Assembly: GCA_964464055.1 (NCBI GenBank) | Contig: CAYXEO010000006.1 | Location: 1,293 to 52,242, forward strand | Source: an uncultured Methanosarcinales archaeon | GTDB lineage: Archaea > Nanobdellota > Nanobdellia > Woesearchaeales > GW2011-AR9 | DNA length: 50,950 nt | Direction of reading: 5' to 3' | Part shown: positions 12,461 to 38,833 of the stretch, piece after piece | How positions within the stretch are numbered: position 1 is the first letter of the stretch | Layout of the letters: each line of letters opens with the position of its first letter | Translations under genes and position numbers: made by a program | The notes under the pieces: generated by a model | The model's database searches: none | Told to the model about the DNA's origin: nothing | What the model saw: only the letters and a program-made list of their open reading frames with translations

Positions 12461-14626
12461 ATGATAAAAAAAAAAGGGGCGTTATATTTGGTTTTGTTTT
12501 TATTAGTTGTTTCTTCAGTAATATCTTTAGAAGAGTTGAACCTTAACACAAACAAATTCAGTTTATTGAATTTCGGTAAGGCGGATTTAGAATCAGACGA
12601 TAGTGCTATAACATTAGAGGACTTAACAGGGGAATCTGATGAAACCCTAGACGTTTATGGCACAGATTTTAATAGTGGTTGTTGGGGTAAGGTAGAAGAA
12701 GATGATGGTTCCTCTGACGGCGACACACATGAAGAAAAGATTCTAACAGGGTATCAATTGTACCCATATGGGAAAAAATTAAAGGACTATATGGTTAATT
12801 CTGATGATGGCACTAGTGGTGCACAGGAAGTGATTGAGAGTACAAAGGTATCAACCGAAGATGGTAACGCCTACATTTGTGCATCTGATAATTGGTGGTA
12901 TATTTGTTCTCTTGAGGAAGGGGCCAATGGTCAGGGTTCAATGATTTGGATAATAAATCCCAGTTTTGTAGAGGGAGACCTATCTACCGTAAATACCGAA
13001 GGAGAAGTACTTTTTGTTTGTGCAAAAGATGATGAAGAAAGACCAGAATGGCAACCAATAGACATTGATGCGGACGGTGACGGGTACACTAAAGGAGAAG
13101 GAGATTGCGCTAACAATCCTTTTAATAAAGATTTACAAACCGTGGATTGTCCACCACATGGTCATCCAGAATTATGTAGTTTTCCAAGAGATTCTCGATG
13201 CGCGATATGTATTGGACCAGGTGCACCAGAAACATGTGGTGACGGAATTAATAATGATTGTGATAATTCAGCATCTGAATTTTATGAGAATGATTTAGAC
13301 GATGATACAAACGATGATTGCCACAAATTCCAAGCAGGTTGTGAACAGAGAAGTTTTGAAGAATTGGGCGAAGAAGATGAATCTTTAGAAGAAGATGATT
13401 TTTTAGAAGAAGAGTATACTCTGACCCATTTAAATTTTAATAATGAAAAATATGATTGGGTTGACATGGACAATGATGGATATTGTTGCGGTTATGGTGG
13501 TATAAATGATTTGGGCAAAATTGTTAAAGGGCAAAATGAAGGCTCTGAAAAAATCTGTTTGAATAAAAATGACCATTTGTTAGGTTTTGAAAATTTACCA
13601 GAATGGGGTACTAATGAGTTGGGGTGTGATGATTGGTGTTGGGTAGATGCAGCAACCGCAGATACCCCATTTAGAATAATGACTATTAAAAAACCCGGTG
13701 AGCAACCTTATGATGTTGTTTCTGATAGTGTTTCTTGGCGTGCTTGTAATGGGACAGAAGGGCCGATGCATGATGAAAATAATTCAGTTCATATTGATGT
13801 TGAAGAAAAAATGGTCAACCACTTTTATTGTTATCAAGAAGGCCAACATTGGAGTTGGGCAGAATGTTATGGTGGTGGAGATTATTCATATAATCCAAAC
13901 TTAAAAGGGCGTTTAGCAGGAGATAGTTTGTATTCTATTTATTTGGATGGTGCATTAAATTCAGAAGATGGTTCGATAACTGTGACAGATACAAAAATAA
14001 CATCTGAAAGTGGAAAATATATGGATTTTTATACTCTTAAAGATTTGGACAAAAAACCAAGTTATGATTTTAGTGGGTATGATACTTTAGATTTTTTTGT
14101 CCAGTTTGTTGATGATAGTGGAGAAAAATTAAACCCGACAGATATCAAAAAACCGTTCGATTTAATGTTGCAATTACATGGACCTTACAAAGAATTGTTG
14201 AGTGAAAATGTTTTGGTTGATCAAAGTGTATTAGGTTATGCAGTAAATCCAAATATGTTTTTAGAAGGTGCTTGGACACATATTAAGTTCCCGATACCTG
14301 ACAATTTATATGCGGTTTCATTTTTAAAATTTAATGTTGGCGAATTAACTAAAAATGAAGTTAAATTAAAAAACATGTATTTGAGTAAAAGTAGTATTCC
14401 AAACCCACCAATCTGTTCTGGGGTTGATGACATTTCACGTAGTTCTTGGTTAGCTTCTTTTGATGACGGAGATGCACAAGGGTACGTTAACGCTCAAGAG
14501 ATGTGTGTTGCACATTATGGATTAAATGCGTGGATGGGTAGTGATGACCAATATGTTACCGGTGAAAACAATTGTTGTGGTGACGATGAAGGGGAATATT
14601 ATTTAGGAAGATTTGTAGATAATTAA
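12461..14626 (+). CDS. Large secreted acidic Cys-rich protein (721 aa), unknown family
   Basis: The leader MIKKKGALYLVLFLLVVSSVISL could be a Sec or a class III-like signal. DIDADGDGYTKGEGDC...GPGAPETCGDGINNDCDN (about nt 13061-13268) resembles the MopE-type putative metal-binding repeat. Vicinal Cys motifs are GYCCGYGG and NCCGDDEGEYY. Confidence 0.85.
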   Translation: MIKKKGALYLVLFLLVVSSVISLEELNLNTNKFSLLNFGKADLESDDSAITLEDLTGESDETLDVYGTDFNSGCWGKVEEDDGSSDGDTHEEKILTGYQLYPYGKKLKDYMVNSDDGTSGAQEVIESTKVSTEDGNAYICASDNWWYICSLEEGANGQGSMIWIINPSFVEGDLSTVNTEGEVLFVCAKDDEERPEWQPIDIDADGDGYTKGEGDCANNPFNKDLQTVDCPPHGHPELCSFPRDSRCAICIGPGAPETCGDGINNDCDNSASEFYENDLDDDTNDDCHKFQAGCEQRSFEELGEEDESLEEDDFLEEEYTLTHLNFNNEKYDWVDMDNDGYCCGYGGINDLGKIVKGQNEGSEKICLNKNDHLLGFENLPEWGTNELGCDDWCWVDAATADTPFRIMTIKKPGEQPYDVVSDSVSWRACNGTEGPMHDENNSVHIDVEEKMVNHFYCYQEGQHWSWAECYGGGDYSYNPNLKGRLAGDSLYSIYLDGALNSEDGSITVTDTKITSESGKYMDFYTLKDLDKKPSYDFSGYDTLDFFVQFVDDSGEKLNPTDIKKPFDLMLQLHGPYKELLSENVLVDQSVLGYAVNPNMFLEGAWTHIKFPIPDNLYAVSFLKFNVGELTKNEVKLKNMYLSKSSIPNPPICSGVDDISRSSWLASFDDGDAQGYVNAQEMCVAHYGLNAWMGSDDQYVTGENNCCGDDEGEYYLGRFVDN

Positions 14627-14630
14627 TAAG

Positions 14631-17600
14631 ATGAACAAAAAAAAGAGTGTGCTGGTACTATTGATGTTGATTTTGTTAGTTTTTAGTTTGTTTGTAATCG
14701 CAGAAGAAGAAGGCGATGATATGAGTAATGATGAAACACCTGAACCCACAAGTGATGAACCAGAAGACACAGAAGACCCTTCTCCTGTTGACGATTTCGA
14801 GGACACAGATAGTTCAGACGAGTTAAGCGGATGGGACGAAACCCCTACTGAAGAAGAATATGAAGGTGAAACACTTTATGGTTGTTGGAATTCTCAACCT
14901 GTGGCAAACGATAATACCATTATGAATGTTGAATTCGAAGTAAGATATCAAGAGAAAGGTATAACTGTCAATAATAAAAATATTGATGTTGGCGCTAAAT
15001 TAAATCAGAAAACAATTAGCGTCGGTAGGGTAAGTTATTCAATTTTTGATTTTGTTTGTAATTCTACTTCTGAAGTTATTAATGGCGGTTTTTGTAATTC
15101 TCTGAATAAAAATTGTACAAATACAGTTAAGAAGACGGGGAACACTACATGTTCTAATCCATTGGGTTGTAATCATACGAACAAAGAATTTTGTGATACC
15201 CAAGAGGAGAAATGTTATACTATAAATGACGAGAATAGCATTTGTATTGGAACTACATCGTTAGAAATTACCGAGTTTGCCACCGTTAATTTGATTGATA
15301 TTACCGAGGGGTATATTAATGTTAAAACGGGCGAGTTTAAAGGGCATTATTTATTAAATAGTTCGGAAGAACCTGAAAAGAACTTTTCTGGTACGTTAAA
15401 TATATCTCAACCTTTAGTAGTTATAGGGAATGTTACACTTCATAGAGATGATTTTGTAAACCCTTTAACAGAGAAACCAGAATTACAAGGAGAGATTACA
15501 TTAGAAAAAAAAAGTGGAAATACTGCTTATGATGTTTTTTTCTATGACCCCATCACAGGAAAAGCTTATGATGATGATGTTTCAACTATTTCAAAAAGAG
15601 AAGTGAATTTATTAATCATGGCCAAGTTGAACGCTTATGCAATTGAAACAACAAAAACAAGTGAAAAAAATACCACTAACTTAACCTACCCTTGTGCAGA
15701 AGAAGAGTGCCTTTATCCGTTACCTGGGCAACCACCTTACGAAATAACAAATAATCACCCAAATTCTTACGAACTTTATTTTGTTTCTACTAATAACCCG
15801 GAAGATGATCAACTTATCACTGGCACATTCGAAACAGATGAATATGGGAACATCAGAGCTAGAAAAGTGTCACAACAAATACTTTATCTTAATCAAGATG
15901 TTGATACGAGAGGTTTTTATGGATGTAATGCACCTTCTTTTTTAAATGAAACCACTAGTGACGAGGGATACTGTTCTATTCAAGGAACACATTTCTGTTC
16001 TTATTCAACTGTCCATGATGAAGTTGGAAATCGAGAACAATATACTACTGTCAATTCTTGGTCAGATATTGGAATTAGTCAAGTTGGTTATATGCCAATG
16101 CCAGAAGTTACAGAAGAAGATATTGACCTTTTTTATAATAATTATTTCTGGGAATTGAAATCAAGTACTTTCTCTGCAACAAAAAGAAACCATTCGTCAA
16201 GTGTTGTTCCCGCTAGGAACTTTTTATCTAATGCCGAATTTGAAACTAGTACATTAGGTTTATCCCATTGGGAAATAATAAAAGACGATTTAAGAGTTAA
16301 AGACGAGCATAGTTTTTTAGGTGGTGAAGGGAACTATTCCACTATCACTTTAGGTTCTGGCGAAATTTTACGTTCCGAACTAGTCGCTGTAGAAAATAAT
16401 CGCACTCTACACTTTACCCAGAACAAATCTGCTGATATAACTATTTTTTTAGTAGATAAAGACGGTACTTTTGTTAATACAATAACCGGTACTAATAATT
16501 TAACAATTAACACCAACACAGCGGTTTATCTTATTTTAGAATTCACTTTTGGTGATGTTGAATATCCGATGTTACAATTAGTTGATGATTTAGGAGGAGG
16601 TAGTTACAGTTATGATAACATTTATCAAAATCGGGCAGCTGCAGCATGTTGTCCTGAAAATTATTGTTGGAACGGACACCATTGTGTTGAACCGATGGAA
16701 GAAACAACTAATATGGTGGAACGTGTAGAGGAGGGAAGATATTATCGTTGCATTGCTGGTGAATGGACACCTTTACCTGTTCAATGGGATTGGAACGCTG
16801 GCAAATGGGGTTTTTGTAGCGAAGAAAGTCAATGTTTTGTATTACGTGATAAAAATAATGCCTTTGCAGAAAATACTTTTGAAACATTTTATGATGGCGA
16901 ATACCCAACTTGTGTCAATAATAGTGAATACATTTTTGATAATTATTGTGATGCGGGTAAATGGACTTCGCGGACAAAAGTTTTGGCCACAAAGTTGTTA
17001 GAAGTTGCTGGTAGTAAAGATCATATATTATATTGTACAAATTATCGTGACAATTTAGTGGAATTATCACAAGGACAAGATAATTATCTCGGTGGTGGAA
17101 TATCACAAACAAATAATGATGAACAAAGTTTAAGTGAAGCAACGAGTGGTCAAATTACTGATGAAATTATTCAAACTTGTTTTGCAGACATAACTGACCC
17201 TGAAGGGCAAAGGTTAGTAAATGATAAAGATAACTCTTGTATAAATAATATGTGTGTGTTAAGATATAAACAAGGTGGTAAATTCAAGACCGCTTTAGCG
17301 ACAACACTAAATAAACCGATTGATGATGTGAATTCGTTCTTATTATCATTAGGAGAAGGGTTATCTGCTGAAGATATCGCAGGAATTTGTAGTGGCGGAT
17401 CTAGTACTTCTTTTGTTAAATGTGATTTGGGTGGATTAGATATTGAAGGAGATTTATATTATATTAACGAAACACAAGGTATAATCTATTCTAAAGATGG
17501 GATTAGTACTGGCGGTAGTTGGACGGACAAAATAGGTCAGTGGTTTAGTGGATTATTTGGTGGTGCCAGTGAGTTATCTGATGAAACTAATTTTGTTAGT

Positions 17601-17909
17601 TCAGCACAGAATTTCCGAGAATTGTATATTTTAAACAAGGACAATAAAAAAGTAAGGGTAATGAGAGAAGTTTATCCGGGTGTTAAAGAGATGTTAATTG
17701 GCGAATTTGAAGGGTTTGAAACCAATGTCTGTGATTATGTCAATAAAATGACTTTACCAGAAGACATAGAATCTGAAGATTTAGAAAAACAATCTAACAT
17801 GAATAAATTAGCTTGTAATAATGAAACACAGAAAATTGAACTAGTTGGTGCACTCGATTTCTTCTGGCCGAAATTAACAGGGCAATTAAGGGTTGGCGAG
17901 TTAGATTAG
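14631..17909 (+). CDS. Giant secreted protein (1092 aa), unknown family
   Basis: Starts 4 nt after the previous stop. The leader MNKKKSVLVLLMLILLVFSLFVIA is followed by a D/E/T/P-rich acidic linker. It has many N-x-S/T sequons and the AAACCPENYCWNGHHC motif. Confidence 0.85.
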   Translation: MNKKKSVLVLLMLILLVFSLFVIAEEEGDDMSNDETPEPTSDEPEDTEDPSPVDDFEDTDSSDELSGWDETPTEEEYEGETLYGCWNSQPVANDNTIMNVEFEVRYQEKGITVNNKNIDVGAKLNQKTISVGRVSYSIFDFVCNSTSEVINGGFCNSLNKNCTNTVKKTGNTTCSNPLGCNHTNKEFCDTQEEKCYTINDENSICIGTTSLEITEFATVNLIDITEGYINVKTGEFKGHYLLNSSEEPEKNFSGTLNISQPLVVIGNVTLHRDDFVNPLTEKPELQGEITLEKKSGNTAYDVFFYDPITGKAYDDDVSTISKREVNLLIMAKLNAYAIETTKTSEKNTTNLTYPCAEEECLYPLPGQPPYEITNNHPNSYELYFVSTNNPEDDQLITGTFETDEYGNIRARKVSQQILYLNQDVDTRGFYGCNAPSFLNETTSDEGYCSIQGTHFCSYSTVHDEVGNREQYTTVNSWSDIGISQVGYMPMPEVTEEDIDLFYNNYFWELKSSTFSATKRNHSSSVVPARNFLSNAEFETSTLGLSHWEIIKDDLRVKDEHSFLGGEGNYSTITLGSGEILRSELVAVENNRTLHFTQNKSADITIFLVDKDGTFVNTITGTNNLTINTNTAVYLILEFTFGDVEYPMLQLVDDLGGGSYSYDNIYQNRAAAACCPENYCWNGHHCVEPMEETTNMVERVEEGRYYRCIAGEWTPLPVQWDWNAGKWGFCSEESQCFVLRDKNNAFAENTFETFYDGEYPTCVNNSEYIFDNYCDAGKWTSRTKVLATKLLEVAGSKDHILYCTNYRDNLVELSQGQDNYLGGGISQTNNDEQSLSEATSGQITDEIIQTCFADITDPEGQRLVNDKDNSCINNMCVLRYKQGGKFKTALATTLNKPIDDVNSFLLSLGEGLSAEDIAGICSGGSSTSFVKCDLGGLDIEGDLYYINETQGIIYSKDGISTGGSWTDKIGQWFSGLFGGASELSDETNFVSSAQNFRELYILNKDNKKVRVMREVYPGVKEMLIGEFEGFETNVCDYVNKMTLPEDIESEDLEKQSNMNKLACNNETQKIELVGALDFFWPKLTGQLRVGELD

Positions 17910-30562: not shown

Positions 30563-30579
30563 GCACAAAAAACAATAAA

Positions 30580-31095: not shown

Positions 31096-31110
31096 TAAGT
31101 GGTTGTAGAA

Positions 31111-31668
31111 ATGAAATTTAAAAAAGGGAATAAACGAGCACAAATGGAAATGGCCGGATTAGTTGTCATAGTTATACTTATTACGCTTGGGATGTTATTC
31201 ATGGCACAGTTTGCAATGAAGGATGACGGGAAGAAAAAGATATTTACCAGAAAAGGTTTAGCTTACAGTGCTATGGGGGGGTTCATGAAAGTTTCGATTA
31301 ATGATTCGCAGTGTTCACCAGGATATATTGGTAGTCAAAGCCCAAGGTTAGGAAAGGAGTTAATAGAAGATTGCGCCAATAATCCGTCTGGCGTGAGTGA
31401 TTCGATTTATAATTGTCGTGGGTTACATACTTGTGAGTTTTTACAACAGTTTATCACAGAACAGTTAAATGAAACATTAGGTGTTTGGGGTAAGGATTAC
31501 ATTTTCACTTCTAAACTAATTATTCCAGACACAGAAAATGTAGTTAAACTTTTTGATTATATTAAAGGTGGTAATGGTTGTCCGAAATGGAAAGATCGTG
31601 ATGGGTCAGGATTATTCCCTATACACACAGGTAGTGGTTTAGTAGAAAATGAGTTGTATTTGTGTTAA
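31111..31668 (+). CDS. Pilin-like protein, 185 aa
   Basis: ATG 31111 is preferred over GTG 31099. The N-terminus is MKFKKGNKRA|QMEMAGLVVIVILITLGMLFMAQF. Confidence 0.7.
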   Translation: MKFKKGNKRAQMEMAGLVVIVILITLGMLFMAQFAMKDDGKKKIFTRKGLAYSAMGGFMKVSINDSQCSPGYIGSQSPRLGKELIEDCANNPSGVSDSIYNCRGLHTCEFLQQFITEQLNETLGVWGKDYIFTSKLIIPDTENVVKLFDYIKGGNGCPKWKDRDGSGLFPIHTGSGLVENELYLC

Positions 31669-31761: not shown

Positions 31762-32037
31762 ATGTTTAATAATAAAAAAGGTCAAGGTATGTCGTTGAAT
31801 GTTGTTATTGTAGCGGCGTTAGCACTGATAGTTTTGGTAGTTCTAATAATGGTTTTTACTGGGCGAATGGGAAATTTCCAAGAAGGTATAAGTAACGAAG
31901 GTAAAGCAGAATTGGTAAAGATGCGAGTTAATTATGGATCTTGTCATCCAGGTGCAGTTCCTGAAGCAGGGTTTGATTTAGAACTTAGTAAAGCAGAAAC
32001 AACCGAAGAAAAAGCATACGCAAAAGCTTTATTCTAA
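31762..32037 (+). CDS. Small pilin-like protein (91 aa), candidate major subunit
   Basis: MFNNKKG|QGMSLNVVIVAALALIVLVVLIMVFTG has the K-G-Q layout typical of archaeal type IV pilins. The gene is short and has its own spacer, promoter-like signal and SD. Confidence 0.75.
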   Translation: MFNNKKGQGMSLNVVIVAALALIVLVVLIMVFTGRMGNFQEGISNEGKAELVKMRVNYGSCHPGAVPEAGFDLELSKAETTEEKAYAKALF

Positions 32038-32114
32038 GAAGAAATTGCTAATTGTAAACAAATGAGTGATGATAAAGGTGTTTGTGAAGACTCTGGATGT
32101 GTTTGGAATTAAAA

Positions 32115-32420
32115 ATGAAACTTAACAAAAAAGGTTCCGCAAACATGTGGTGGATCATCATCGGCGCTGTTGTGGCGTTAGTGGTCATGATAGTTTTGAT
32201 GATGTTGTTCACTGGTAAAAGCAACAAATTAGAAATTGGACTTATGGATTGTGCAGGTAAAGGAGGTGAATGTCTGGCTGTAAATGAATGTAAAGATACA
32301 AAAGATGTTGAGGCGACAATATCTAGGGCGTTTGATTGTCCAACTGATACAGGTACCCAATCAATAACTGGAAATATTTGTTGTTTTAAGGATGCTAAAA
32401 CAACTAACCTCAACAAATAA
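32115..32420 (+). CDS. Small pilin-like protein (101 aa)
   Basis: ATG 32115 is preferred over the track start 32097. The N-terminus is MKLNKKG|SANMWWIIIGAVVALVVMIVLMMLFTG. The mature part has six Cys. Confidence 0.75.
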   Translation: MKLNKKGSANMWWIIIGAVVALVVMIVLMMLFTGKSNKLEIGLMDCAGKGGECLAVNECKDTKDVEATISRAFDCPTDTGTQSITGNICCFKDAKTTNLNK

Positions 32421-32423: not shown

Positions 32424-32552
32424 ATGTTTCGTTCAAAAAAAGGTGTTGACTGGATGAGTCCAAGTATGTTGGTGATAATTATATTAGCTATTATCTTGGG
32501 CGTTTCTTTACTTTATTATGTTTGGTCAATGAAAGCGAGGTTAGCAATATGA
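32424..32552 (+). CDS. Unlisted 42-aa pilin-like mini-protein
   Basis: This ORF is below the track's size cutoff. It reads MFRSKKG|VDWMSPSMLVIIILAIILGVSLLYYVWSMKARLAI. It starts 3 nt after the previous stop, and its TGA overlaps the next ATG as ATGA. Confidence 0.5.
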   Translation: MFRSKKGVDWMSPSMLVIIILAIILGVSLLYYVWSMKARLAI

Positions 32553-32704
32553 AATCTAAAAAAGCGACGATAGAGATGAGCAAATTGATTGTGTTCATTT
32601 TGGTTGTAATTTTGTTAATTTTTTTGATGGTTTGGTACGGTTACCTTGCAGAAGGTAGGGGTGGATTAGGAGACATGATGGGGAAAATGTTAGATTTTAT
32701 GTAA
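32549..32704 (+). CDS. 51-aa pilin-like mini-protein
   Basis: ATG 32549 is preferred over TTG 32522. The sequence is MKSKKA|TIEMSKLIVFILVVILLIFLMVWYGYLAEGRGGLGDMMGKMLDFM. Confidence 0.5.
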   Translation: MKSKKATIEMSKLIVFILVVILLIFLMVWYGYLAEGRGGLGDMMGKMLDFM

Positions 32705-32705
32705 A

Positions 32706-33491
32706 ATGGTAGCGATGAACAAATTAGTAACATTCATTATTGTGATAATGTTCGCAGGAATTTTTGCTGCGGTACTTTATTCTCCCAGTGGGGCGTTTGA
32801 GAAAGGTAAAGGGGCATTGGAAGGTGCAAAAGAAATTGTGCCAAATATATCTATTGGAGATAAAGCATTAATGGGTGGAACACCAGAGGTAGCTTCTATT
32901 CATCGACAAGAAATTACTAATATGGTTCGAATTATTAATGACATGCTGAATAGTTCAAAATCAAGTTCTGACTGTTTTAATAATTATGGTGGATTTACAG
33001 ATCTCGGAGAAGACGATGGGGCAGTAACTATCAGTTTAGCATACAATGGAGTGAATGGCACACAATTAACTGTTAATGGTGGTGTAGGAGGAAAACAGAT
33101 TATTACAGATTTACGAGAATTTTTTCCTAACATGCGTCCTTGTGTAATTGCTACTGGAAATATTGCGAGTAATTTTTATGAAAAATTTATCGAAGGTGAT
33201 GATGTATCTAATTATTATAAGTTTGTAAATTCAATAACTATAAAATACGATTTTGATAACTGGAATGAAAACAGAATTGATTATGATGGTAGTGGGCCAA
33301 TTGATTTTGAAGGACATACATGGCTGTTTACTCCGGATAACACCCACATTTGTTTTTTTCCAACAGAAGATGGAAATGCAGGTTGTGATGGAGATGGTTC
33401 TGAAGGTTTAGATGATGATTGTCTAATTGATACAACAGAAAAAACAAGTGTTCCTTATCGTATAAACAATGGACCATTAAAAAAATGTTAA
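32706..33491 (+). CDS. N-terminally anchored or secreted protein (261 aa), the only island member lacking the KK[GA] motif
   Basis: MVAMNKLVTFIIVIMFAGIFAAVLY is followed by a globular part ending in the acidic Cys motif GNAGCDGDGSEGLDDDC. Confidence 0.75.
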   Translation: MVAMNKLVTFIIVIMFAGIFAAVLYSPSGAFEKGKGALEGAKEIVPNISIGDKALMGGTPEVASIHRQEITNMVRIINDMLNSSKSSSDCFNNYGGFTDLGEDDGAVTISLAYNGVNGTQLTVNGGVGGKQIITDLREFFPNMRPCVIATGNIASNFYEKFIEGDDVSNYYKFVNSITIKYDFDNWNENRIDYDGSGPIDFEGHTWLFTPDNTHICFFPTEDGNAGCDGDGSEGLDDDCLIDTTEKTSVPYRINNGPLKKC

Positions 33492-34483
33492 GAAAGGTGA
33501 ATAAAAAAGGGTTGGCTGCTGGACAGCTGGTAATGATTATAATTGTTCTAGTTGCTTTTGTGTTGATTGCTGGAACTGTTTCTAGATTTATGTCTAAAGC
33601 AGAACCGAAAGAAGCAGAAATCATGTGTTATAATAGTATTAACATGCGGGTTCAAAGTTCTATCCAAGTAAATTCCGGATTAGTTGAAGGAAATTTAAAA
33701 TTAATTCCACCAATGTGTAAAACGATAGATTTGAAAATAACAGGTAATCGGGAAGAATTATTGGAACAAATTGCTTATGCTTCTGCTAGATGTTGGTGGA
33801 TGTTTGGCGAGGGGAGATATGAAGATTTGTTACGTACTACAGGAGAATCTATCACAGTTTTACCAAGTATATTTAATGTTGATCATTATGATAATAAATG
33901 TTTTAATTGTTATACTCTTTTAGTTGATCAAGATGAGATAGAAGGAGGTAACATTGGCCCTGAAGATATTCAAAAATATATGGTTGAAAAAGATCATAGA
34001 CAAATAAAAGGGTTAAGTTATTTAGATTATATTCAAAGTTATGGTGGCCCTGGAAGGATGGTTTTTACTATGCCCGTAATAGCTCCCAGAGAATCTTATT
34101 CAATTTCTATCGTGCCTAAATTGGCACAAAAGACGGGTAGTTTCTGGAATTCACTTGGAAAATTTATTGTGGGCGCCGCAGTAGTTATAGCTGTCGTAGG
34201 TGGTGTGGCCTGTGTTGTGGCAACTGCGGGTGCTTGTGCTGCCGTACTTGGTCCTGCAGGAGCAGCTTTAGCAGCGACAGGCGCAGTTATGACAGGTTCA
34301 TCTTTGGCAATTGGTATTACTGTTGCAGGAGGTCTTGCGGCAGGGTACGTGGGTACAAAGAGTTACATGGAAATGGTTAACAAATTTTTTGATGCGTCTG
34401 AAAGAGATGTAAGTTCTGTTTTTGTTAGTTTTTTAGAAGTTGGTCAACAAAAATGTGGGTCTGGAGACCTAGCGGGAGAATAA
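33485..34483 (+). CDS. Pilin-like N-terminus plus C-terminal Gly/Ala-rich multi-TM region (332 aa)
   Basis: The N-terminus is MLRKVNKKG|LAAGQLVMIIIVLVAFVLIAG. The C-terminus is GKFIVGAAVVIAVVGGVACVVATAGACAAVLGPAGAALAATGAVMTGSSLAIGITVAGGLAAGYVG. It overlaps the previous gene by 7 nt. Confidence 0.75.
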   Translation: MLRKVNKKGLAAGQLVMIIIVLVAFVLIAGTVSRFMSKAEPKEAEIMCYNSINMRVQSSIQVNSGLVEGNLKLIPPMCKTIDLKITGNREELLEQIAYASARCWWMFGEGRYEDLLRTTGESITVLPSIFNVDHYDNKCFNCYTLLVDQDEIEGGNIGPEDIQKYMVEKDHRQIKGLSYLDYIQSYGGPGRMVFTMPVIAPRESYSISIVPKLAQKTGSFWNSLGKFIVGAAVVIAVVGGVACVVATAGACAAVLGPAGAALAATGAVMTGSSLAIGITVAGGLAAGYVGTKSYMEMVNKFFDASERDVSSVFVSFLEVGQQKCGSGDLAGE

Positions 34484-34516
34484 ATTTATAATTATAAAAA
34501 AAGAGGTATGACGAAA

Positions 34517-35965
34517 ATGTTTAATGATAAAAAAGGGATGGCCATGAGCACGTTAGTGAAGATGATTATCCCGTTAATTGTTTTAGTGATAATTGGGATT
34601 GCCTTATTTCCCAAATTTAACCCGATGGTTTCTAGTGCGACAGAACTAGCAGATTTCGGTGACTGTGATAAAGATAAAGTACAAAATTATTTTGATAAAT
34701 GTCCTTGCATAACCACTCTCTCTGATGAATCGGAAGATTTGCGTGGATGCCCTAAGGGGACCAGCGTAAATAAATCTAATTGGGATCAACAAACATGTAA
34801 CTGGTTTATTACTAATTTGGAAGACCCTGAAAAAGATCCGGTAGAAAGTTGCGGTGAAGATAACGAAAGTGGTTGTGCTGGAGTTGGCGGTGTAGAAGGT
34901 GTTTATAAAACCAGATGTGGCCATGTAGGAGAAACAGCGATTGAATTGCCTACGATAGAACAAGCCGATGAAGATGCCGTGACAATTAATACTAATGTTG
35001 CGTTGGAATCCTTAACAGTAAACAAATGGGATAACCCAAATTGGTTAAATTCAGATTTATTTTTTGAACGTGCACAAGGTCCTTCTACTTCTTGGTCACA
35101 TAAAGGTGGCCATTTTAATTGGATTCAAATAAAACCTAATATTAGTAACACAGGTAATATCAAAGTTGCAAATACATTTAACGTTGAAGTTCAGGTGTGT
35201 AATTCTGCCGGCACTAAATGTAAAAGGAAAAATTTGTACGATTCTTCTGGCACAGATTCGCATGGAGCCCCAACCGGGACGCCAATCCCGGTTTATAGTG
35301 TTAATGGATTGGATGTGAATGAGTCTGATGGAGAAAATAAGTTTGTTCAGATAGGGTATAATGGCGATTATTGTGATGGTCTTGGTGACCATGACTGTTT
35401 GGTTAAATTAAAGATTTACGGCATTAAAGATATAGATAAAACGGATAATGAAATCAGTTTTGTGTTTAAATACACAGATCAAATACATAATCCAAAAATG
35501 AGTCTAACTTGGTACCAGTTAGAGTTTGTAGTAGGTAATAATGGCGATAATGATGAGTATGATAATTTCTGTCAGAAATGCACTATTAGTCAAGCCAAAA
35601 ATAAATTTTACAAAAAATGGGGTGCCCATCATGGCGCATATCCAGACTCTGCTTCTGGGAATAATTGTGTTATTTTTGCTGTTGATGACGATGGTGGTAT
35701 GGAAGATTTAGGTTCTGGTGAAGTTCAAGAGGGGTTCATATTACACGCTGATAAGTCCGTTAAACTTTCTCTAACAAATGTACAAGGAGAAGTTGATGCG
35801 TATACTGGTGTTCAAAAAAGAAATGCAGCTGCACAAACAGACGGTGACGTGATCTGTTACAATAACGCATGGTATTGGTGCAGTAAAAGTAGTAATGATG
35901 AGTTAGTTGTTGTTGGTAACGATTATTACGTTTGTAACAATTTGAACTGGATCAAAAGGCAATGA
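34517..35965 (+). CDS. Pilin-like protein, 482 aa
   Basis: ATG 34517 is preferred because AGAGGT sits 10 nt upstream. The N-terminus MFNDKKG|MAMSTLVKMIIPLIVLVIIGIALF parallels the MFNNKKGQGMS of the 31762 gene. The track start is 34508. Confidence 0.75.
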   Translation: MFNDKKGMAMSTLVKMIIPLIVLVIIGIALFPKFNPMVSSATELADFGDCDKDKVQNYFDKCPCITTLSDESEDLRGCPKGTSVNKSNWDQQTCNWFITNLEDPEKDPVESCGEDNESGCAGVGGVEGVYKTRCGHVGETAIELPTIEQADEDAVTINTNVALESLTVNKWDNPNWLNSDLFFERAQGPSTSWSHKGGHFNWIQIKPNISNTGNIKVANTFNVEVQVCNSAGTKCKRKNLYDSSGTDSHGAPTGTPIPVYSVNGLDVNESDGENKFVQIGYNGDYCDGLGDHDCLVKLKIYGIKDIDKTDNEISFVFKYTDQIHNPKMSLTWYQLEFVVGNNGDNDEYDNFCQKCTISQAKNKFYKKWGAHHGAYPDSASGNNCVIFAVDDDGGMEDLGSGEVQEGFILHADKSVKLSLTNVQGEVDAYTGVQKRNAAAQTDGDVICYNNAWYWCSKSSNDELVVVGNDYYVCNNLNWIKRQ

Positions 35966-35992
35966 TTTTATTTTTTTTAATTTTTTTTCAAA

Positions 35993-36613
35993 ATGGTAAA
36001 CAAAAAAGGGATAATGTTAAAATTTTTAACGACGATTTTGTTAGCGATAGTTATTTTTGCACCTGCTTGTATGGTTTCTTCTAAATTTTTTCGGCTCAGT
36101 GCACAAGCGAATGACAATTTTGCTGAATTCGTAGAAAAGATAGACAAACTGGGTAATTATGGTCAACAGGGTGAACAAAGTAGTTTCGTGTTGATTAAAG
36201 ATAAAAATACATGTATTGCTAATTTGTGGTCTGGTTCCGATTATCATGAAAGATATACTCGTTGTTCTTCTGGTCAAGTAGAAGAAACGTGGCTCGGAGT
36301 AGGCAAATCATGCCAAGGGAAAGATTGTATTTGTTTGATAAAAGAGCTTAGTGTCACAGAAACAGACAGGAAAAGTTCTAATTGTGGTTCTGAAAAAAGA
36401 GTGAATGAAATAACGCCAACAAAAATAGCTTGTATTTCTGTACCAGACAATTATTATATTTATGGATTAAGTTGGAGAGATTGGTGTCGGTTTGGTGACG
36501 ATTCACGAAGAACAACCATGAGTATGGTAAAAGAAGGTAACAAAGTTTATGTTTGTGAAGCAGGTAATTGTGATATTCCTGAAACGCCGGAAAAACACCT
36601 ATACAAAGGATAA
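35993..36613 (+). CDS. Pilin-like protein, 206 aa
   Basis: MVNKKG|IMLKFLTTILLAIVIFAPA, with a Cys-rich mature part. Confidence 0.75.
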   Translation: MVNKKGIMLKFLTTILLAIVIFAPACMVSSKFFRLSAQANDNFAEFVEKIDKLGNYGQQGEQSSFVLIKDKNTCIANLWSGSDYHERYTRCSSGQVEETWLGVGKSCQGKDCICLIKELSVTETDRKSSNCGSEKRVNEITPTKIACISVPDNYYIYGLSWRDWCRFGDDSRRTTMSMVKEGNKVYVCEAGNCDIPETPEKHLYKG

Positions 36614-36616
36614 AAA

Positions 36617-37027
36617 ATGAATAAAAAAGCTAACAGTACAATAATGATAATTTTTGAAGTGTTGACCTTATTAGCGATAGCTTACATGATGATTACCGTG
36701 GGACTTGTTTATGGCAGTTCTGATACGGTTTTCAAAGTTAATACCGCGGAAGAAATAAGGATGATGGTGGACACGTTAGCAGGGATACCCGGGGAAGCAA
36801 AAGTTCAATTCCCTCATAATGTTTCAGGTTACAATTTGAAATTGGAAAAAGGTACAATTGCAGTTTTTAAGGTTGGTGAAGAAGAAAGTAGCGGTAAATG
36901 GGTCACTAGAAATTTTTTTTTACCTGCTGGTTTTGATGCCAAAGGTATATCAAGAAACGAAACAACTTTTTGTTTAGAGAAAGAAAGGTTGCAAACGAAA
37001 GTAATGATAAAAATGGTGTCTTGTTAA
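36617..37027 (+). CDS. Pilin-like protein, 136 aa
   Basis: MNKKA|NSTIMIIFEVLTLLAIAYMMITVGLVY. It starts 3 nt after the previous stop. Confidence 0.75.
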   Translation: MNKKANSTIMIIFEVLTLLAIAYMMITVGLVYGSSDTVFKVNTAEEIRMMVDTLAGIPGEAKVQFPHNVSGYNLKLEKGTIAVFKVGEEESSGKWVTRNFFLPAGFDAKGISRNETTFCLEKERLQTKVMIKMVSC

Positions 37028-37028
37028 G

Positions 37029-37646
37029 ATGACAGAATTATTAAAGGGAATAAATAAAAAAGGACCATCTTTGTTTTCCTCACATTCGTTGCGGAAACTT
37101 CAGATCTCCAAAAAAGGACCATCTTCGTTTTCCTCACATTCGTTGCGGAAACTTCAGATCTCCAAAAAAGGACAATTCGACGTAGCTCGGAAAACAATAT
37201 TTTGGATGTTGGCGGGGGTTATGATTACCATAGTCATATTTGTTTTCGCTTTAATCTTGGGAGGTCATAAAGCTAACTTGATGAGTGTCCCTTTAGACGT
37301 TAAAGCAGAATTGATCTCGTTACGATTTACAAATTCTCCAGAATGTTTCGCTTACCAAGATAATGTTAGCAAAGTAGTTTTCCCAGGGATAATCGATTTA
37401 GAAAAATTTAACAAAACAACTTTAGAGAGATGTTATTCTACCGAAGGGATAGGTGGGATTAAAACCCTCAATTTTAGGTTAGAATTACAAAATACAAATT
37501 TGAAATTATTAACAGATAATTATTATAGTGCTGATGTAACAGATTCAACTATTTTTAAGGAAGTGTTAGTAAAATATGAGAATGGTTTAGAGAAAGATAC
37601 ATTGGCAATTTATGTACAAGAAAAAATTAAAGGGTACGAACAATGA
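37029..37646 (+). CDS. Pilin-like protein with triplicated KKG site (205 aa)
   Basis: MTELLKGINKKG-PSLFSSHSLRKLQISKKG-PSSFSSHSLRKLQISKKG|QFDVARKTIFWMLAGVMITIVIFVFALIL. The two 18-aa inserts come from a 54-bp tandem repeat. Confidence 0.7.
   Translation: MTELLKGINKKGPSLFSSHSLRKLQISKKGPSSFSSHSLRKLQISKKGQFDVARKTIFWMLAGVMITIVIFVFALILGGHKANLMSVPLDVKAELISLRFTNSPECFAYQDNVSKVVFPGIIDLEKFNKTTLERCYSTEGIGGIKTLNFRLELQNTNLKLLTDNYYSADVTDSTIFKEVLVKYENGLEKDTLAIYVQEKIKGYEQ
37056..37173 (+). repeat. 54-bp tandem repeat, 2.2 copies, in frame inside the 5' end of the 37029 gene
   Basis: Unit AAAAAAGGACCATCTTTGTTTTCCTCACATTCGTTGCGGAAACTTCAGATCTCC occupies 37056-37109 and repeats at 37110-37163 with one mismatch (TTG/TCG). 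A partial third copy, AAAAAAGGAC, is at 37164-37173. Confidence 0.9.
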
Positions 37647-38041
37647 AGAAGTGGAATAAAAAAGGGATGATGGACGATTTTTTTGATTTCATATTTACTA
37701 CCGTCTCTCTTTTTTTCTTATTGTTTTTTATTTCGTTAGTATTCAATGGTTCGGTAAATAGTTCACATGAAACAAGTGCAGAAAATGTTGCTGATTTTAA
37801 GATTAAAGATGCGGCGATAAACAATTTATTATTACAAAATTATCTTACAGAAGTAAATATTGATAAAATTGATTCATCCATCTCTAAAAGTAATTTATGG
37901 AACGGGAAAGTAATTACAAGTTGTACTGATTATACTACTGAAAAAGATTGCGAAAGCGACCCGATGGGGAAAGGTGGAGGGTTTTGTAATTGGGCAAGTT
38001 CATTTTGTTATTATGGTAATCCTGCGATAATGGTTGGTTAA
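37643..38041 (+). CDS. Pilin-like protein, 132 aa
   Basis: MKKWNKKG|MMDDFFDFIFTTVSLFFLLFFISLVF. It has an ATGA overlap with the previous gene. Confidence 0.75.
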   Translation: MKKWNKKGMMDDFFDFIFTTVSLFFLLFFISLVFNGSVNSSHETSAENVADFKIKDAAINNLLLQNYLTEVNIDKIDSSISKSNLWNGKVITSCTDYTTEKDCESDPMGKGGGFCNWASSFCYYGNPAIMVG

Positions 38042-38044
38042 AAA

Positions 38045-38833
38045 ATGAATAAAAAAGGAACGTTATTTCACTGGATATTTTTTATAGTTTTAATAGCGTT
38101 AGCGGTATTTTTCATGTATAATAATAAAGAGGTGCTTAATGTAAGCGTGAAAGGAGAATGGTCCACAGATTTTTTGATGAAAAATTATATCCCTGCAAAA
38201 AAGATGCTTTTAGAAAATAATATTGTAGCTAAAAAAACTGCTCAAGAAACGTTTTGGGAATTGGCTGAATACGGTGGTTATTCAGAGAACATTTCTTCCG
38301 ACTGTGGAAAATATCAGGGGGCAAATTTATGGAACAATGGTAATACTCCCTGTTTTCCAAACGCAAATAACATATTTAATTTGGCAATGAGCAAAAATAT
38401 TCAAGAAAATTCTGATAAACAATTTTGGAACATTGTTATTAATAACAATTTTGTTTCTGGTAAAGGTGACGATAATATGATTATAGAAAGTGATAACACC
38501 TATACTTTTAATGATGGGTTTGGGGTTTGGATATTTTATAAACTGGAAGATTATGATTCTTTGTTTGGCAAGGCTACAAAATTAGTTAACGCTTGTAATA
38601 ATGCAACAAATTCCACAACTTTGAAAATTTGTCTCGATGAAAATAAACCTAGCAGTTGGAAATACAGATCTTGTCAATCTGAAAGTTATTATGAACAAGC
38701 TCGGCAAGTTAAATTTTGTGCGGAAAGCCCTTACAATGTGCATTTATTAGCTTCTTCTGGACAGAAAGAAATAGTACATTATACCTTCGCACTAGATTTC
38801 ACTAACCAAACAACCCCATCAATTACCACATAA
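38045..38833 (+). CDS. Pilin-like protein, 262 aa (last gene of the island)
   Basis: MNKKG|TLFHWIFFIVLIALAVFFMY. It is followed by a 110-nt spacer with T-runs. Confidence 0.75.
   Translation: MNKKGTLFHWIFFIVLIALAVFFMYNNKEVLNVSVKGEWSTDFLMKNYIPAKKMLLENNIVAKKTAQETFWELAEYGGYSENISSDCGKYQGANLWNNGNTPCFPNANNIFNLAMSKNIQENSDKQFWNIVINNNFVSGKGDDNMIIESDNTYTFNDGFGVWIFYKLEDYDSLFGKATKLVNACNNATNSTTLKICLDENKPSSWKYRSCQSESYYEQARQVKFCAESPYNVHLLASSGQKEIVHYTFALDFTNQTTPSITT

What the first reader, a model, noticed from the sequence alone, without database searches (positions are those of the whole stretch)
12461..38833. 26-kb one-strand surface island: giant Cys-rich secreted proteins plus a 16-gene battery of pilin-like proteins, with no assembly genes in view
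Seen: 21 consecutive + strand ORFs, with spacing from a 7-nt overlap to a 123-nt gap.
- The first five encode 721, 1092, 984, 380 and 2161 aa proteins. All have hydrophobic leaders, acidic composition, many Cys (including vicinal CC) and many N-x-S/T sequons.
- Of the next 16 ORFs (42-482 aa), 15 start with a short basic N-terminus ending in K-[KR]-[GA], immediately followed by about 20 hydrophobic residues.

Established: that is the layout of archaeal class III (type IV pilin-like) signal peptides, which are cut by PibD/EppA/FlaK-type prepilin peptidases.

Beyond generic modules (CarboxypepD_reg-like, Ig/FN3-like, TSP3-like calcium sites, a MopE-like repeat), I could not place any of the 21 products in a characterised family.

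Inference: this is a dedicated filament or adhesion apparatus, with a minor-pilin-like priming set plus giant tip or surface adhesins. Its logic is analogous to bacterial fimU-pilVWXY1E, and it is what a host-attached small-genome archaeon would need.

Three aspects are unusual:
- the number of pilin-like paralogues in one array;
- the fusion of such an N-terminus to a ~950-aa ectodomain;
- the absence of ATPase, platform and peptidase genes anywhere in this 50.9-kb window.
Basis: partly seen in the sequence, partly recalled or inferred. Interest (0 to 1): 0.9.

Follow-up and report, generated by a model that had tools for sequence, protein, structure and literature searches.

The report
Pilin and adhesin supercluster of Woesearchaeota
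This 26-kb stretch is the subunit and adhesin half of a type IV pilus-like surface machine that is conserved gene-for-gene in many tiny DPANN archaea, while its motor, membrane-platform and peptidase genes (found next to the same locus in relatives) lie elsewhere in this genome.

Summary
There are 21 consecutive + strand ORFs at 12461-38833. Fifteen of the last 16, plus the 984-aa protein, carry a K-[KR]-[G/A] site followed by a hydrophobic helix.

It is not a horizontally acquired island or a set of recent paralogues. It is a core locus with 1:1 orthologues (28-52% identity) in the same order in dozens of Woese-/Nanoarchaeota genomes. In every form it sits just upstream of RPA-(YdjM)-RadA.

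The key evidence is the 332-aa member (33485-34483). Its family occurs in at least 200 GTDB species. In Pacearchaeota-type and intermediate genomes the orthologous locus at the same chromosomal position is a complete operon:
- a FlaI/CpaF-like ATPase (Pfam T2SSE);
- a 9-TM, 720-aa protein;
- 7-9 pilin-like genes;
- in the compact Pacearchaeota-type form, an A24 prepilin peptidase as well.

The 984-aa family (580 representatives) has a near-invariant [KR][GA]|Q[IV]T[ILV]F[IM]I.G site. Its model shows a 73-residue N-terminal helix followed by cadherin/Ig-like domains.

Two of the "secreted" giants are in fact type I membrane proteins.

Pfam and NCBIfam recognise none of the pilin-like families. 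The motor genes of this genome were not located.

Verdict: a new, elaborated variant of an archaeal type IV filament system, with its motor genes unlinked.

The parts
12461..14626 (+). 721-aa acidic, 25-Cys protein with a Sec-type leader. It is the most variable member of the locus.
   Evidence: Only 5 homologues were found in 5.8 billion proteins, yet a gene is present at this position in syntenic loci. Homologues have A-x-A Sec cleavage sites.
14631..17909 (+). 1092-aa acidic, 31-Cys protein with 19 sequons and a Sec-type leader.
   Evidence: No Pfam or PDB sequence hit. Syntenic in class W loci.
17981..20935 (+). 984-aa modular pilin-like adhesin. Order of elements: class III site NKKA|QITIF, a 73-residue N-terminal helix, cadherin/Ig-like beta-sandwich domains with an invariant DPDED motif, and a Cys-rich C-terminal domain.
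   Evidence: 580 representatives; invariant Q17, F21, G25; AF2 pLDDT 78.9, helix 14-86; Foldseek matches to protocadherins and SiiE BIg domains, E about 1e-7 to 1e-5.
20948..22090 (+). 380-aa type I membrane protein: Sec leader, Cys-rich N-terminal module, TM helix at about residue 213, and a K-rich cytoplasmic tail. It looks like a short paralogue of the ends of the 2161-aa protein.
   Evidence: (similar to the N- and C-terminal parts of the 2161-aa protein).
22151..28636 (+). 2161-aa giant type I membrane protein with 76 Cys, 17 sequons and two CarboxypepD_reg domains (residues about 185-346). It has a conserved C-terminal TM helix and a basic cytoplasmic tail of about 170 aa. It is a candidate S-layer-like or adhesin component.
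   Evidence: PF13620, 7.7e-25; 42% identity over 1780 aa to the 1.56-Mb genome; TM plus tail in 29 of 30 orthologues.
28760..31668 (+). Four pilin-like genes (195, 377, 183/171 and 189 aa) with KKA|M, KKA|Q, KKG|Q and KRA|Q sites. Together with the five large proteins they form 'module A'.
   Evidence: Present in 23 of 23 complete class W loci. In some genomes they are separated from module B (L016, L018, L027).
31762..32112 (+). Candidate major pilin. It is 116 aa in other samples and 91 aa here because of an AAA>TAA change at 32035. The site is KKG|QGMSLNVVIVAALALIVLVVL, and a TATA-like element lies in the 93-nt upstream gap.
   Evidence: The same GQGLS.N N-terminus occurs in compact (pG195) and intermediate loci.
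32097..32420 (+). 107-aa pilin-like protein (KKG|SANMWWIIIGAV) with a 7-Cys C-terminal part. Its N-terminus is paralogous to that of the previous gene.
   Evidence: Present in 23 of 23 loci.
32424..32704 (+). Two mini-pilin ORFs (42 aa, and 60/51 aa) with KKG|VDW... and KKA|TIEM... sites. The mature parts are about 35-45 aa with no globular domain, resembling Flp/Epd-type pilins.
   Evidence: At least one such tiny ORF, and usually two, lies in the same interval in 40 of 40 class W loci.
32706..33491 (+). 261-aa membrane-anchored protein. It is the only one of the 16 without a [KR][GA] site.
   Evidence: Present in 23 of 23 loci.
33485..34483 (+). 332-aa signature component (KKG|LAAGQLVM; invariant Cys and a CWWMFGEG motif). 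It is the only member whose globular domain is shared with the compact Pacearchaeota-type operons (detected by profile comparison); BLAST finds it in two of the intermediate loci.
   Evidence: AF2 pLDDT 79, helices 7-37 and 41-61, alpha/beta domain; no PDB fold match; at least 200 species; hhalign 99.9% to pB269; hits in L094 and L097, none in L096.
34508..38833 (+). Six further pilin-like genes (485, 206, 136, 205, 132 and 262 aa). The last one (262 aa) shares its N-terminal module with relatives' proteins that carry murein-hydrolase domains.
   Evidence: (205-aa gene in 23/23 loci, 262-aa in 22/23, 136-aa in 21/23, 206-aa in 19/23, 132-aa in 13/23, 485-aa in 7/23).
38944..42504 (+). Conserved downstream neighbours RPA (38944-40041), YdjM (40433-40888), a 123-aa protein, and RadA (41563-42504). 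They are context rather than shown components.
   Evidence: RPA lies directly downstream in 29 of 31 class W and 20 of 21 compact loci.
46517..50540 (-). Part of a second, smaller module (283-aa TM-anchored, 627-aa and 431-aa Cys-containing proteins). Its class III member (620 aa, MNKKG|QITLFIILG) lies just outside the window.
   Evidence: L160; L005 4390-6252, plus a 92-aa duplicated fragment at 6280-6558.

Best explanation
The region encodes the subunits and surface proteins of a type IV filament (TFF/T4P-like) system that is a core feature of Woesearchaeales-type DPANN archaea.

**Proposed mechanism.**
- Sixteen products (the 984-aa protein plus 15 of the 16 small ones) are inserted by Sec.
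- An A24 prepilin peptidase cuts them after the conserved K-[KR]-[G/A].
- They stay in the membrane through their N-terminal hydrophobic helix.
- A FlaI/CpaF-family ATPase, working through a polytopic platform protein, extracts them and polymerises them into a filament or short pseudopilus.
- In this lineage those three assembly genes are encoded elsewhere in the genome. In relatives they flank the orthologous locus.

**Proposed roles (all inferred).**
- Shaft candidates are the short GQG(L/M)S-type protein (31762) and/or the two Flp-like mini-pilins (32424-32704).
- The other, individually conserved pilin-like proteins form a defined minor-pilin or tip/base complex.
- The 984-aa cadherin-like protein is a modular adhesive pilin.
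- The 2161-aa and 380-aa type I membrane proteins and the two secreted Cys-rich proteins are associated envelope or adhesin components.
- The overall function is most likely attachment to a partner cell or surface.

**Shown.** The motif and its conservation, the synteny, the homology to ATPase/A24-linked loci, and the predicted folds.

**Inferred.** Cleavage, polymerisation, the role of each protein, and the target.
For: 1. Fifteen of 16 ORFs plus the 984-aa protein have [KR][GA] followed by a hydrophobic helix; none of the 22 ORFs outside the array does. The site is conserved across orthologues of every family. In the 984-aa family it is near-invariant as [KR][GA]|Q[IV]T[ILV]F[IM]I.G over 35-48% overall identity.
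2. Gene-for-gene synteny holds in dozens of genomes at 28-52% identity. The block runs from RNase P p30 through 721-1092-984-380-2161 and the pilin-like genes to RPA-YdjM-RadA.
3. The 332-aa family occurs in at least 200 GTDB species. In about 30 of the 80 loci examined, its homologue (hhalign 99.9%) lies in a complete operon. That operon has a 762-aa ATPase, a 9-TM 720-aa protein, 7 pilin-like genes and an A24 peptidase, and it is followed by RPA and RadA.
4. The ATPase matches Pfam T2SSE (3.8e-13). Its best PDB matches are A. fulgidus GspE 2OAP (3e-29), CpaF and FlaI, and its best NCBIfam match is FlaI (5.6e-36). The peptidase matches Peptidase_A24 (6.4e-12) and FlaK (3e-11).
5. Intermediate loci, including the complete 737-kb genome CP066683.1, have ATPase-platform directly upstream of pilin-like sets. 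Those in L094 and L097 include detectable homologues of class W families.
6. AF2 models have the pilin hallmark of a long N-terminal helix: 7-37 plus 41-61 in the 332-aa protein and 14-86 in the 984-aa protein. The latter has cadherin/Ig-like adhesin domains.
7. Pilin genes unlinked to T4P operons are usual in archaea (PMC4858521; bioRxiv 10.64898/2026.04.22.720090). flaI, flaJ and flaK are reported in most Woesearchaeota MAGs (PMC11606122).
Against: - No ATPase, platform or peptidase was found in about 71 kb of this population's genome, or within 10 kb of the locus in any class W genome. Their presence in this genome is therefore assumed, not shown.
- No pilin-like product, and none of 128 orthologues, matches any Pfam or NCBIfam pilin or class III family.
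- The 332-aa globular fold has no PDB match.
- Only 4 of the 17 class III-like sites in the window (the 16-gene array plus the 984-aa protein) fit the strict FlaFind pattern. Many have a polar spacer of 4-11 residues before the hydrophobic helix.
- The putative platform of relatives shows no detectable T2SSF/FlaJ similarity.
- Only the 332-aa family, and weakly the 206-aa family, link class W to compact loci at the level of the globular domain.
- There is no expression or processing data.
Confidence: 0.7

Rival explanations
1. The class III-type proteins are processed and held together by their N-terminal helices but do not form a long pilus. They build a short pseudopilus or bindosome-like, stoichiometric cell-envelope complex. 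This complex organises or anchors the giant membrane and S-layer-like proteins, or opens the envelope for them.
For: - There are 12-14 distinct families, each kept as a single-copy 1:1 orthologue in fixed order. That suggests a defined multi-subunit complex rather than interchangeable filament subunits.
- The 2161-aa protein is conserved, TM-anchored and sequon-rich, like archaeal S-layer proteins.
- S-layer-like proteins are frequent in archaeal T4P loci (PMC4858521; bioRxiv 2026.04.22.720090).
- Class III proteins that are not filament pilins are known, such as the Sulfolobus bindosome.
Against: - Short GQGLS-type pilins and Flp-like mini-pilins, typical shaft subunits, are universally present.
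- There are no solute-binding domains.
- The 984-aa protein looks like an adhesin on a stalk.
Confidence: 0.2
2. The machine is primarily a nucleic-acid uptake or exchange device, like a competence pseudopilus or the Sulfolobus Ups pili. It would be functionally coupled to the neighbouring recombination genes and serve nucleotide scavenging or DNA repair in a genome-reduced symbiont. This concerns the function of the same apparatus and is not exclusive of the best explanation.
For: - RPA lies directly downstream in 49 of 52 loci of both classes. RadA follows in 24 of 35 loci that extend far enough.
- Hef helicase and XPF lie upstream of the ATPase in the intermediate loci L097, L098, L178 and L179.
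- A 575-aa ORF with a helicase-like N-terminus, which I take from its sequence to be RecQ-like (not checked against Pfam), lies between the ATPase and platform genes in L078.
- From my own knowledge: the Sulfolobus ups operon is followed by DNA-repair genes, and CPR bacteria use T4P/Com systems for DNA uptake.
Against: - No ComEC/Ced-like channel, nuclease or DNA-binding pilin domain was detected in the locus.
- Gene order could be conserved for reasons unrelated to function.
- The cadherin-like and giant Cys-rich proteins point to adhesion.
Confidence: 0.12
3. The N-termini are ordinary uncleaved signal anchors of unrelated membrane proteins. The array has nothing to do with a type IV filament machine.
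For: - There are no Pfam or NCBIfam pilin hits.
- Most sites fail the strict FlaFind pattern.
- No assembly genes are nearby.
Against: - The small residue at -1 and the basic residue at -2 are conserved across orthologues. The 984-aa family has an invariant GQ.T.F..G-type site.
- Orthologous loci contain the ATPase and the A24 peptidase.
- A signal anchor has no need for a conserved G/A after the basic residues.
Confidence: 0.04

Closest known systems
Archaeal Epd pili / 'TFF system 1' of Methanococcus maripaludis (also reported for some DPANN)
   Same: - Many distinct class III proteins in one transcription-like unit.
- K-K-G|Q-type sites.
- A short pilin lacking a globular domain.
- Pilin genes at loci separate from the ATPase.
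- An adhesin-like class III protein (PMC4858521).
   Different: - No sequence match to PF04021 or other Epd families.
- Relatives have one 720-aa platform gene rather than two.
- There are 16 class III genes, an adhesive pilin of about 850-980 aa, and giant type I membrane proteins.
- The motor genes are unlinked.
Bacterial Tad/Flp pilus (CpaF ATPase, Flp pilin)
   Same: - The relatives' ATPase matches CpaF among its best solved structures.
- The mini-pilins have mature parts of about 35-45 aa.
   Different: - No Flp motif (G|xxxxEY).
- No TadB/C, RcpA or TadZ homologues.
- An archaeal envelope.
Bacterial minor-pilin/PilY1 tip complexes (FimU-PilVWXE-PilY1) and modular pilins such as Streptococcus sanguinis PilB (PMC8179133)
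   Same: - The logic of several low-abundance pilins plus a large adhesive component.
- A pilin N-terminus fused to a large functional ectodomain.
   Different: No detectable homology; this is an analogy only. The 984-aa ectodomain is cadherin/Ig-like and Cys-rich. It is not a PilY1 beta-propeller or a vWA module.
Compact Pacearchaeota-type TFF operon found here (e.g. L078, JAAOYJ010000003.1)
   Same: - The same chromosomal position, upstream of RPA and RadA.
- A homologous 332-aa/pB269 component.
- The same GQGLS.N pilin N-terminus.
   Different: - It contains the ATPase, platform and A24 peptidase.
- It has only 7 pilin-like genes and no giant proteins.
Type IV pili of Saccharibacteria (CPR episymbionts; PMC11623550)
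   Same: Ultrasmall, host-dependent cells in which T4P are conserved and implicated in host binding.
   Different: A bacterial T4aP machinery with no homology of subunits. The role in this archaeon is untested.

Membership tests
Type IV filament (TFF/T4P-like) systems | Subunits with a class III signal: short basic leader, G/A at -1, then a hydrophobic helix of about 20 residues | tested here: met
   Present in 15 of 16 small ORFs plus the 984-aa protein. Conserved in orthologues. Cleavage itself is not testable here.
Type IV filament (TFF/T4P-like) systems | Secretion ATPase of the T2SSE/FlaI/CpaF family encoded in the system | tested here: not met
   None in the window, in 10 kb on either side, or in any class W locus. 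Present in orthologous loci of relatives (PF00437, 3.8e-13; PDB matches). The rest of this genome could not be searched.
Type IV filament (TFF/T4P-like) systems | Polytopic platform protein (T2SSF/FlaJ/TadC) | tested here: inconclusive
   None in the window. Relatives have a conserved 9-TM, roughly 720-aa protein directly after the ATPase. It has no Pfam, NCBIfam or PDB sequence similarity to T2SSF.
Type IV filament (TFF/T4P-like) systems | A24-family prepilin peptidase in the genome | not testable with these tools
   Not in the window or its flanks. Present at the 3' end of the compact orthologous loci (PF01478, 6.4e-12; FlaK). flaK is reported in most Woesearchaeota MAGs (PMC11606122).
Type IV filament (TFF/T4P-like) systems | Pilin fold: long N-terminal alpha-helix followed by a globular domain | tested here: met
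   AF2 gives helices 7-37 plus 41-61 in the 332-aa protein (pLDDT 79) and 14-86 in the 984-aa protein (pLDDT 78.9). The globular parts are not like known pilins.
Curated archaeal pilin families (Pfam Class_IIIsignal/DUF361, Pilin_N; NCBIfam archaeal flagellin N-terminal-like) | Significant profile match | tested here: not met
   No such hit for the 16 window proteins at E<=1, nor for 128 orthologues from 10 genomes at E<=1e-3.
Archaellum | Archaellin (FlaB) domain plus FlaF/G/H accessory genes | tested here: not met
   No such Pfam or NCBIfam hits in the window or in relatives' loci. The ATPase scores far below the FlaI equivalog cut-off (124 against 550 bits).
Bindosome / class III solute-binding proteins | Solute-binding domain after the class III helix, with a neighbouring ABC transporter | tested here: not met
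   No SBP or ABC domains. The BasE match of the relatives' ATPase is far below cut-off.
Bacterial FimU-PilVWX-PilY1-PilE minor pilin operon | Homology to GspH/I/J/K-type minor pilins or the PilY1 propeller | tested here: not met
   No Pfam or PDB match. The resemblance is one of logic only.

The most novel reading that the evidence does not exclude
The conserved supercluster, together with its unlinked motor, is the cell-contact organelle of Woesearchaeota. In this reading it is a type IV filament whose pilin-like subunits carry effector modules: cadherin-like adhesins here, and M23, amidase and SLT murein hydrolases in sister lineages. The organelle would attach to partner cells, breach them (bacterial partners in the hydrolase-bearing lineages) and take up DNA or nucleotides. 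Its invariant genomic coupling to RPA, RadA and Hef/XPF would reflect that function. If so, it would be a new functional class of archaeal TFF machine and a handle on the unknown hosts of these archaea.
Probability: 0.15. Interest if true: 0.85.

Novelty: new variant of a known kind. Interest (0 to 1): 0.62.

Why it matters
How Woese-/Pacearchaeota contact partners is unknown; none of the papers read here describes a cultured member.

This analysis defines a conserved surface-machine gene set that Pfam and NCBIfam do not recognise at all. It is present in hundreds of species. ATPase-anchored TFF searches would probably miss it, because the subunit cluster is unlinked from its motor in one large lineage.

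It provides several concrete tools:
- markers: the 332-aa CWWMFGEG protein, and the GQ[IV]T.F large pilins of about 850 aa;
- an evolutionary series running from compact to intermediate to expanded loci;
- testable predictions on processing, filament composition, adhesion through cadherin-like domains, and murein-hydrolase-tipped pilins in relatives that would imply bacterial hosts.

Tried and rejected
**Searches that found nothing.**
- Pfam and NCBIfam on all 21 products and on 128 orthologues gave only CarboxypepD_reg in the 2161-aa giant.
- PDB sequence searches with the 2161-, 984- and 1092-aa proteins, the 332-aa profile and the platform profile were not informative.
- Foldseek with the 332-aa model found no match.

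**Attempts to locate the motor genes of a class W genome. All failed.**
- An ATPase homologue search gave more than 6293 clusters at about 60% identity. None of the top 120 shares a contig length with a class W contig.
- Five ATPase context look-ups all returned 'intermediate' loci with pilins attached.
- The metagenome scan and flanks showed only housekeeping genes upstream of the locus.

**Ideas rejected.**
- Horizontally acquired island: GC is 0.34-0.38 against 0.27-0.33 in the flanks, and the locus is syntenic with core genes.
- Recent paralogue expansion: all-vs-all BLAST and hhalign found no support.
- Class III signals on the 721- and 2161-aa proteins: KKKG/KKRG is present, but homologues have A-x-A Sec sites. 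This remains ambiguous for the 2161-aa protein.
- A strain difference in the 205-aa gene (205 against 146 aa): it is only a gene-calling difference, as the DNA is identical.

**Of limited value.** The homologue search with the 721-aa protein gave only 5 hits, all on short contigs.

Full report
**Source and setting.**
The window is archaeal. It encodes MCM with an intein, TBP, RPA, RadA and RNase P p30, and Cdc6 and PolD lie just upstream. GC content is about 33%. Near-identical contigs of the same population occur in several JGI samples (3300009008, 3300008625, 3300007510/11, 3300008627) and in ENA assemblies labelled SUTE22-1. Relatives are labelled Woesearchaeota or Nanoarchaeota.

**Observation.**
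The 21 + strand ORFs at 12461-38833 exist as described.
- Fifteen of the last 16 carry K-[KR]-[G/A] followed by a strongly hydrophobic segment. None of the 22 ORFs outside the array does so within its first 50 residues (Fisher p = 1e-9).
- The 984-aa protein has the same N-terminus.
  - The hydrophobic helix often starts 4-11 residues after the G/A.
  - Four of the five large proteins have Sec-type leaders (A-x-A sites in homologues).
  - The 2161-aa and 380-aa proteins have a C-terminal TM helix followed by a K/R-rich cytoplasmic tail of about 150-190 aa. This is conserved in 29 of 30 orthologues, so they are type I membrane proteins.
  - Only three of the five large proteins are rich in sequons.
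  - The small proteins are not detectable paralogues of each other beyond the N-terminal segment.

**A conserved core locus, not an island.**
The 332-aa protein (33485-34483) has well over 100 homologue clusters. A pattern scan found relatives in at least 200 GTDB species genomes. Contexts fall into three types.

1. *Class W.* This covers 48 of the 80 loci retrieved, including a 1.56-Mb Woesearchaeota contig.
   - These loci repeat the window gene for gene: 2161-195-377-183-189-91/116-107-(mini-pilins)-261-332-(485)-206-136-205-(132)-262, followed by RPA-YdjM-x-RadA-TRAM-PPDK.
   - Identities are 28-52% for the surface genes, against 61% for RPA and 81% for RadA.
   - A metagenome scan with the 984-aa family extended the synteny upstream to MCM-TBP-THUMP-tRNA methyltransferase-RNase P p30-721-1092-984-380-2161.
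   - Core families are present in 19-23 of 23 complete loci. The 485-aa and 132-aa genes are detected in fewer loci (7 and 13 of 23).
   - Tiny class III ORFs like the 42- and 60-aa ones are present in the same interval in 40 of 40 loci.
   - In a few genomes the locus is split between 189 and 91, which defines two modules.

2. *Class P.* This is the compact form, about 30 loci labelled Pacearchaeota, Woesearchaeota, or in one case Iainarchaeum.
   - The chromosomal position is the same, upstream of RPA and RadA.
   - The gene order is: two divergently transcribed genes, one of which (236 aa) gives weak coiled-coil-type Pfam matches; a roughly 762-aa ATPase; a 9-TM, roughly 720-aa protein; seven pilin-like genes; and a 279-aa polytopic peptidase.
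   - The ATPase matches Pfam T2SSE (3.8e-13). Its closest solved structures are A. fulgidus GspE, CpaF and FlaI.
   - The peptidase matches Peptidase_A24 (6.4e-12) and FlaK.
   - The second pilin-like gene (pB269) is homologous to the 332-aa protein in its globular part (hhalign 99.9%, E = 4e-31).
   - The last one (pG195) shares the GQGLS.N...VLV N-terminus with the window's 31762 product.

3. *Intermediate loci.* These include the complete 737-kb genome CP066683.1. They have ATPase-platform directly followed by 8-10 pilin-like genes and then RPA.

The window locus is therefore the elaborated subunit part of a Nanoarchaeota-wide type IV filament locus, from which the ATPase, platform and peptidase genes have been separated.

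**Evidence that the N-termini are real prepilin signals.**
- Within each family the K-K-G/A site is conserved while the rest diverges.
- The 984-aa family has 580 representatives at 50% clustering, typically about 850 aa. Its site is near-invariant as [KR][GA]|Q[IV]T[ILV]F[IM]I[ILV]G, and Q17, F21 and G25 are invariant in 40 sequences.
- AF2 models built with alignments give long N-terminal helices: 7-37 plus 41-61 in the 332-aa protein (pLDDT 79) and 14-86 in the 984-aa protein (pLDDT 78.9).
- The 984-aa ectodomain matches tandem cadherin/Ig-like arrays such as protocadherins and the Ca-binding adhesin SiiE (Foldseek E about 1e-7 to 1e-5, low TM-scores because of multidomain geometry). It contains an invariant DPDED motif. 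This fits a modular adhesive pilin.
- The 332-aa globular domain has no PDB fold match.

**What is not shown.**
- Pfam and NCBIfam recognise none of the pilin-like proteins or 128 of their orthologues.
- The 720-aa 'platform' of relatives has no detectable similarity to T2SSF/FlaJ. Its role is inferred from position and topology.
- The motor genes of this genome, or of any class W genome, were not located. They are absent from the window, from 10 kb on each side, and from all class W loci. My attempts to find them through the ATPase family only returned intermediate-type loci.
- The literature indicates that flaI, flaJ and flaK are found in most Woesearchaeota MAGs (PMC11606122). It also indicates that archaeal pilin genes commonly lie outside T4P operons (PMC4858521; bioRxiv 10.64898/2026.04.22.720090). 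Unlinked motor genes are therefore the most economical assumption.

**Mechanism proposed (inference).**
- The subunits are inserted by Sec and cleaved by an A24 peptidase after G/A.
- An unlinked FlaI/CpaF-like ATPase and platform assemble them.
- The shaft would come from the GQGLS pilin (31762) and/or the two Flp-like mini-pilins.
- The individually conserved remaining pilin-like proteins would form a defined minor-pilin complex.
- The 984-aa cadherin-like pilin would be the adhesive element.
- The 2161/380-aa type I membrane proteins and the two secreted Cys-rich proteins would be associated adhesins or S-layer-like envelope components.

**Rivals.**
- A short pseudopilus or envelope complex rather than a long filament.
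- A DNA uptake or exchange role, suggested by the invariant linkage to RPA and RadA and, in intermediate loci, to Hef/XPF.
- Ordinary signal anchors, which is disfavoured.

**Comparison with known systems.**
- The closest are the Epd/'system 1' pili and Tad/Flp-like systems. They share K-K-G|Q sites, a globular-domain-less pilin, many minor pilins, separate pilin loci and a CpaF-like ATPase in relatives.
- No family-level membership could be shown.
- The architecture differs: 16 class III genes, large pilins of about 850-980 aa, giant TM proteins and unlinked motor genes.
- The analogy to FimU-PilVWXY1E is one of logic only.

**Verdict.**
It is a new variant of a known kind of system. Its interest lies in showing a conserved, unannotated contact apparatus of an uncultured archaeal radiation, together with an evolutionary series that explains the 'missing' assembly genes.

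Noticed in passing
window 32035 (within 31762-32112): The candidate major pilin is cut short here by a single AAA>TAA change, giving 91 instead of 116 aa and losing a C-terminal part with three Cys. Contigs from three other samples are otherwise identical in the 126-bp stretch aligned. This is either a strain-level nonsense allele or an assembly or sequencing error.
   Followed up: partly
window 37056-37173: A 54-bp tandem repeat (2.2 copies, 98% identical) lies in the 5' end of the 205-aa gene. It gives three successive K-K-G motifs (KKGPS.FSSHSLRKLQIS twice, then KKGQ). It is identical in other samples. An in-frame TTG inside the repeat could be the real start (MRKLQISKKG|Q...).
   Followed up: partly
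L094 14878-16836; L097 19324-20166 and 21208-22260; L098 18892-20136; L178 19657-22292: In 'intermediate' relatives, genes within the pilin-like set next to the ATPase-platform pair carry bacterial-type murein hydrolase domains. The N-termini I inspected (L094, L097, L098) are class III-like.
- L094: Peptidase_M23 2.9e-24 plus Amidase_3 5e-23.
- L097: M23 5e-18 and SLT 1.9e-27.
- L098: SLT 2e-7.

The last of these genes shares its N-terminal module with the window's 262-aa protein, which has no detectable hydrolase domain. The passages I read report lytic transglycosylases in Woesearchaeota (PMC9723730) without mentioning fusion to prepilin signals or a position in the pilus locus.
   Followed up: partly
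window 46517-50540 (- strand) and L005 4136-8124: A second surface module lies at the right end of the window (283-aa TM-anchored, 627-aa and 431-aa proteins). Just outside the window it is headed by a 620-aa class III protein (MNKKG|QITLFIILG) and a 92-aa duplicated N-terminal fragment. Similar pairs of 'large GQ.T.F pilin plus giant Cys-rich partner' occur several times per genome in relatives (L160, L161, L175).
   Followed up: partly
window 38944-42504 and loci L016-L098, L178, L179: The pilus locus is flanked by DNA replication and repair genes across all locus types.
- RPA lies directly downstream in 49 of 52 loci, and RadA follows in 24 of 35 loci that extend far enough.
- Hef helicase and XPF lie upstream in the intermediate loci L097, L098, L178 and L179.
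- In L078 a 575-aa ORF with a helicase-like N-terminus, which I take to be RecQ-like (not checked against Pfam), lies between the ATPase and the platform gene.

Whether this is functional coupling or frozen gene order is unknown.
   Followed up: partly
window 10922-12376: Immediately upstream of the cluster is a 484-aa polytopic protein resembling bacterial apolipoprotein N-acyltransferase Lnt (TIGR00546 1e-36, 127 bits, just under the 132.9 cut-off; CN_hydrolase 2.7e-20). No homologue of it was detected at E<1e-5 in the class W loci that reach upstream of the cluster.
   Followed up: no
window 10594-10854: An 86-aa acidic ORF with 11 Cys and no signal peptide. It is also called as a gene in other samples and has no family match.
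   Followed up: no
window 2336-5530 (- strand); P0128, P0129, P0182, P0203, P0214, P0239: The MCM gene carries an intein with a LAGLIDADG domain. Several relatives' pilus ATPases (1238-1272 aa) also carry inteins (Intein_splicing plus LAGLIDADG_3).
   Followed up: no
L017, L021, L025, L030 and others (GTDB records); L064: Many GTDB records carrying this Woesearchaeota-type locus are titled 'uncultured Methanosarcinales archaeon'. One 1-kb contig with a 332-aa homologue sits in a 'Saganbacteria' bin. These are probably labelling or binning artefacts.
   Followed up: no
window 8720-9241 and 10332-10502: A nucleotidyltransferase (NTP_transf_2) gene and a 56-aa HepT-like fragment lie upstream of the cluster. 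They look like remnants of an MNT/HepT toxin-antitoxin pair.
   Followed up: no
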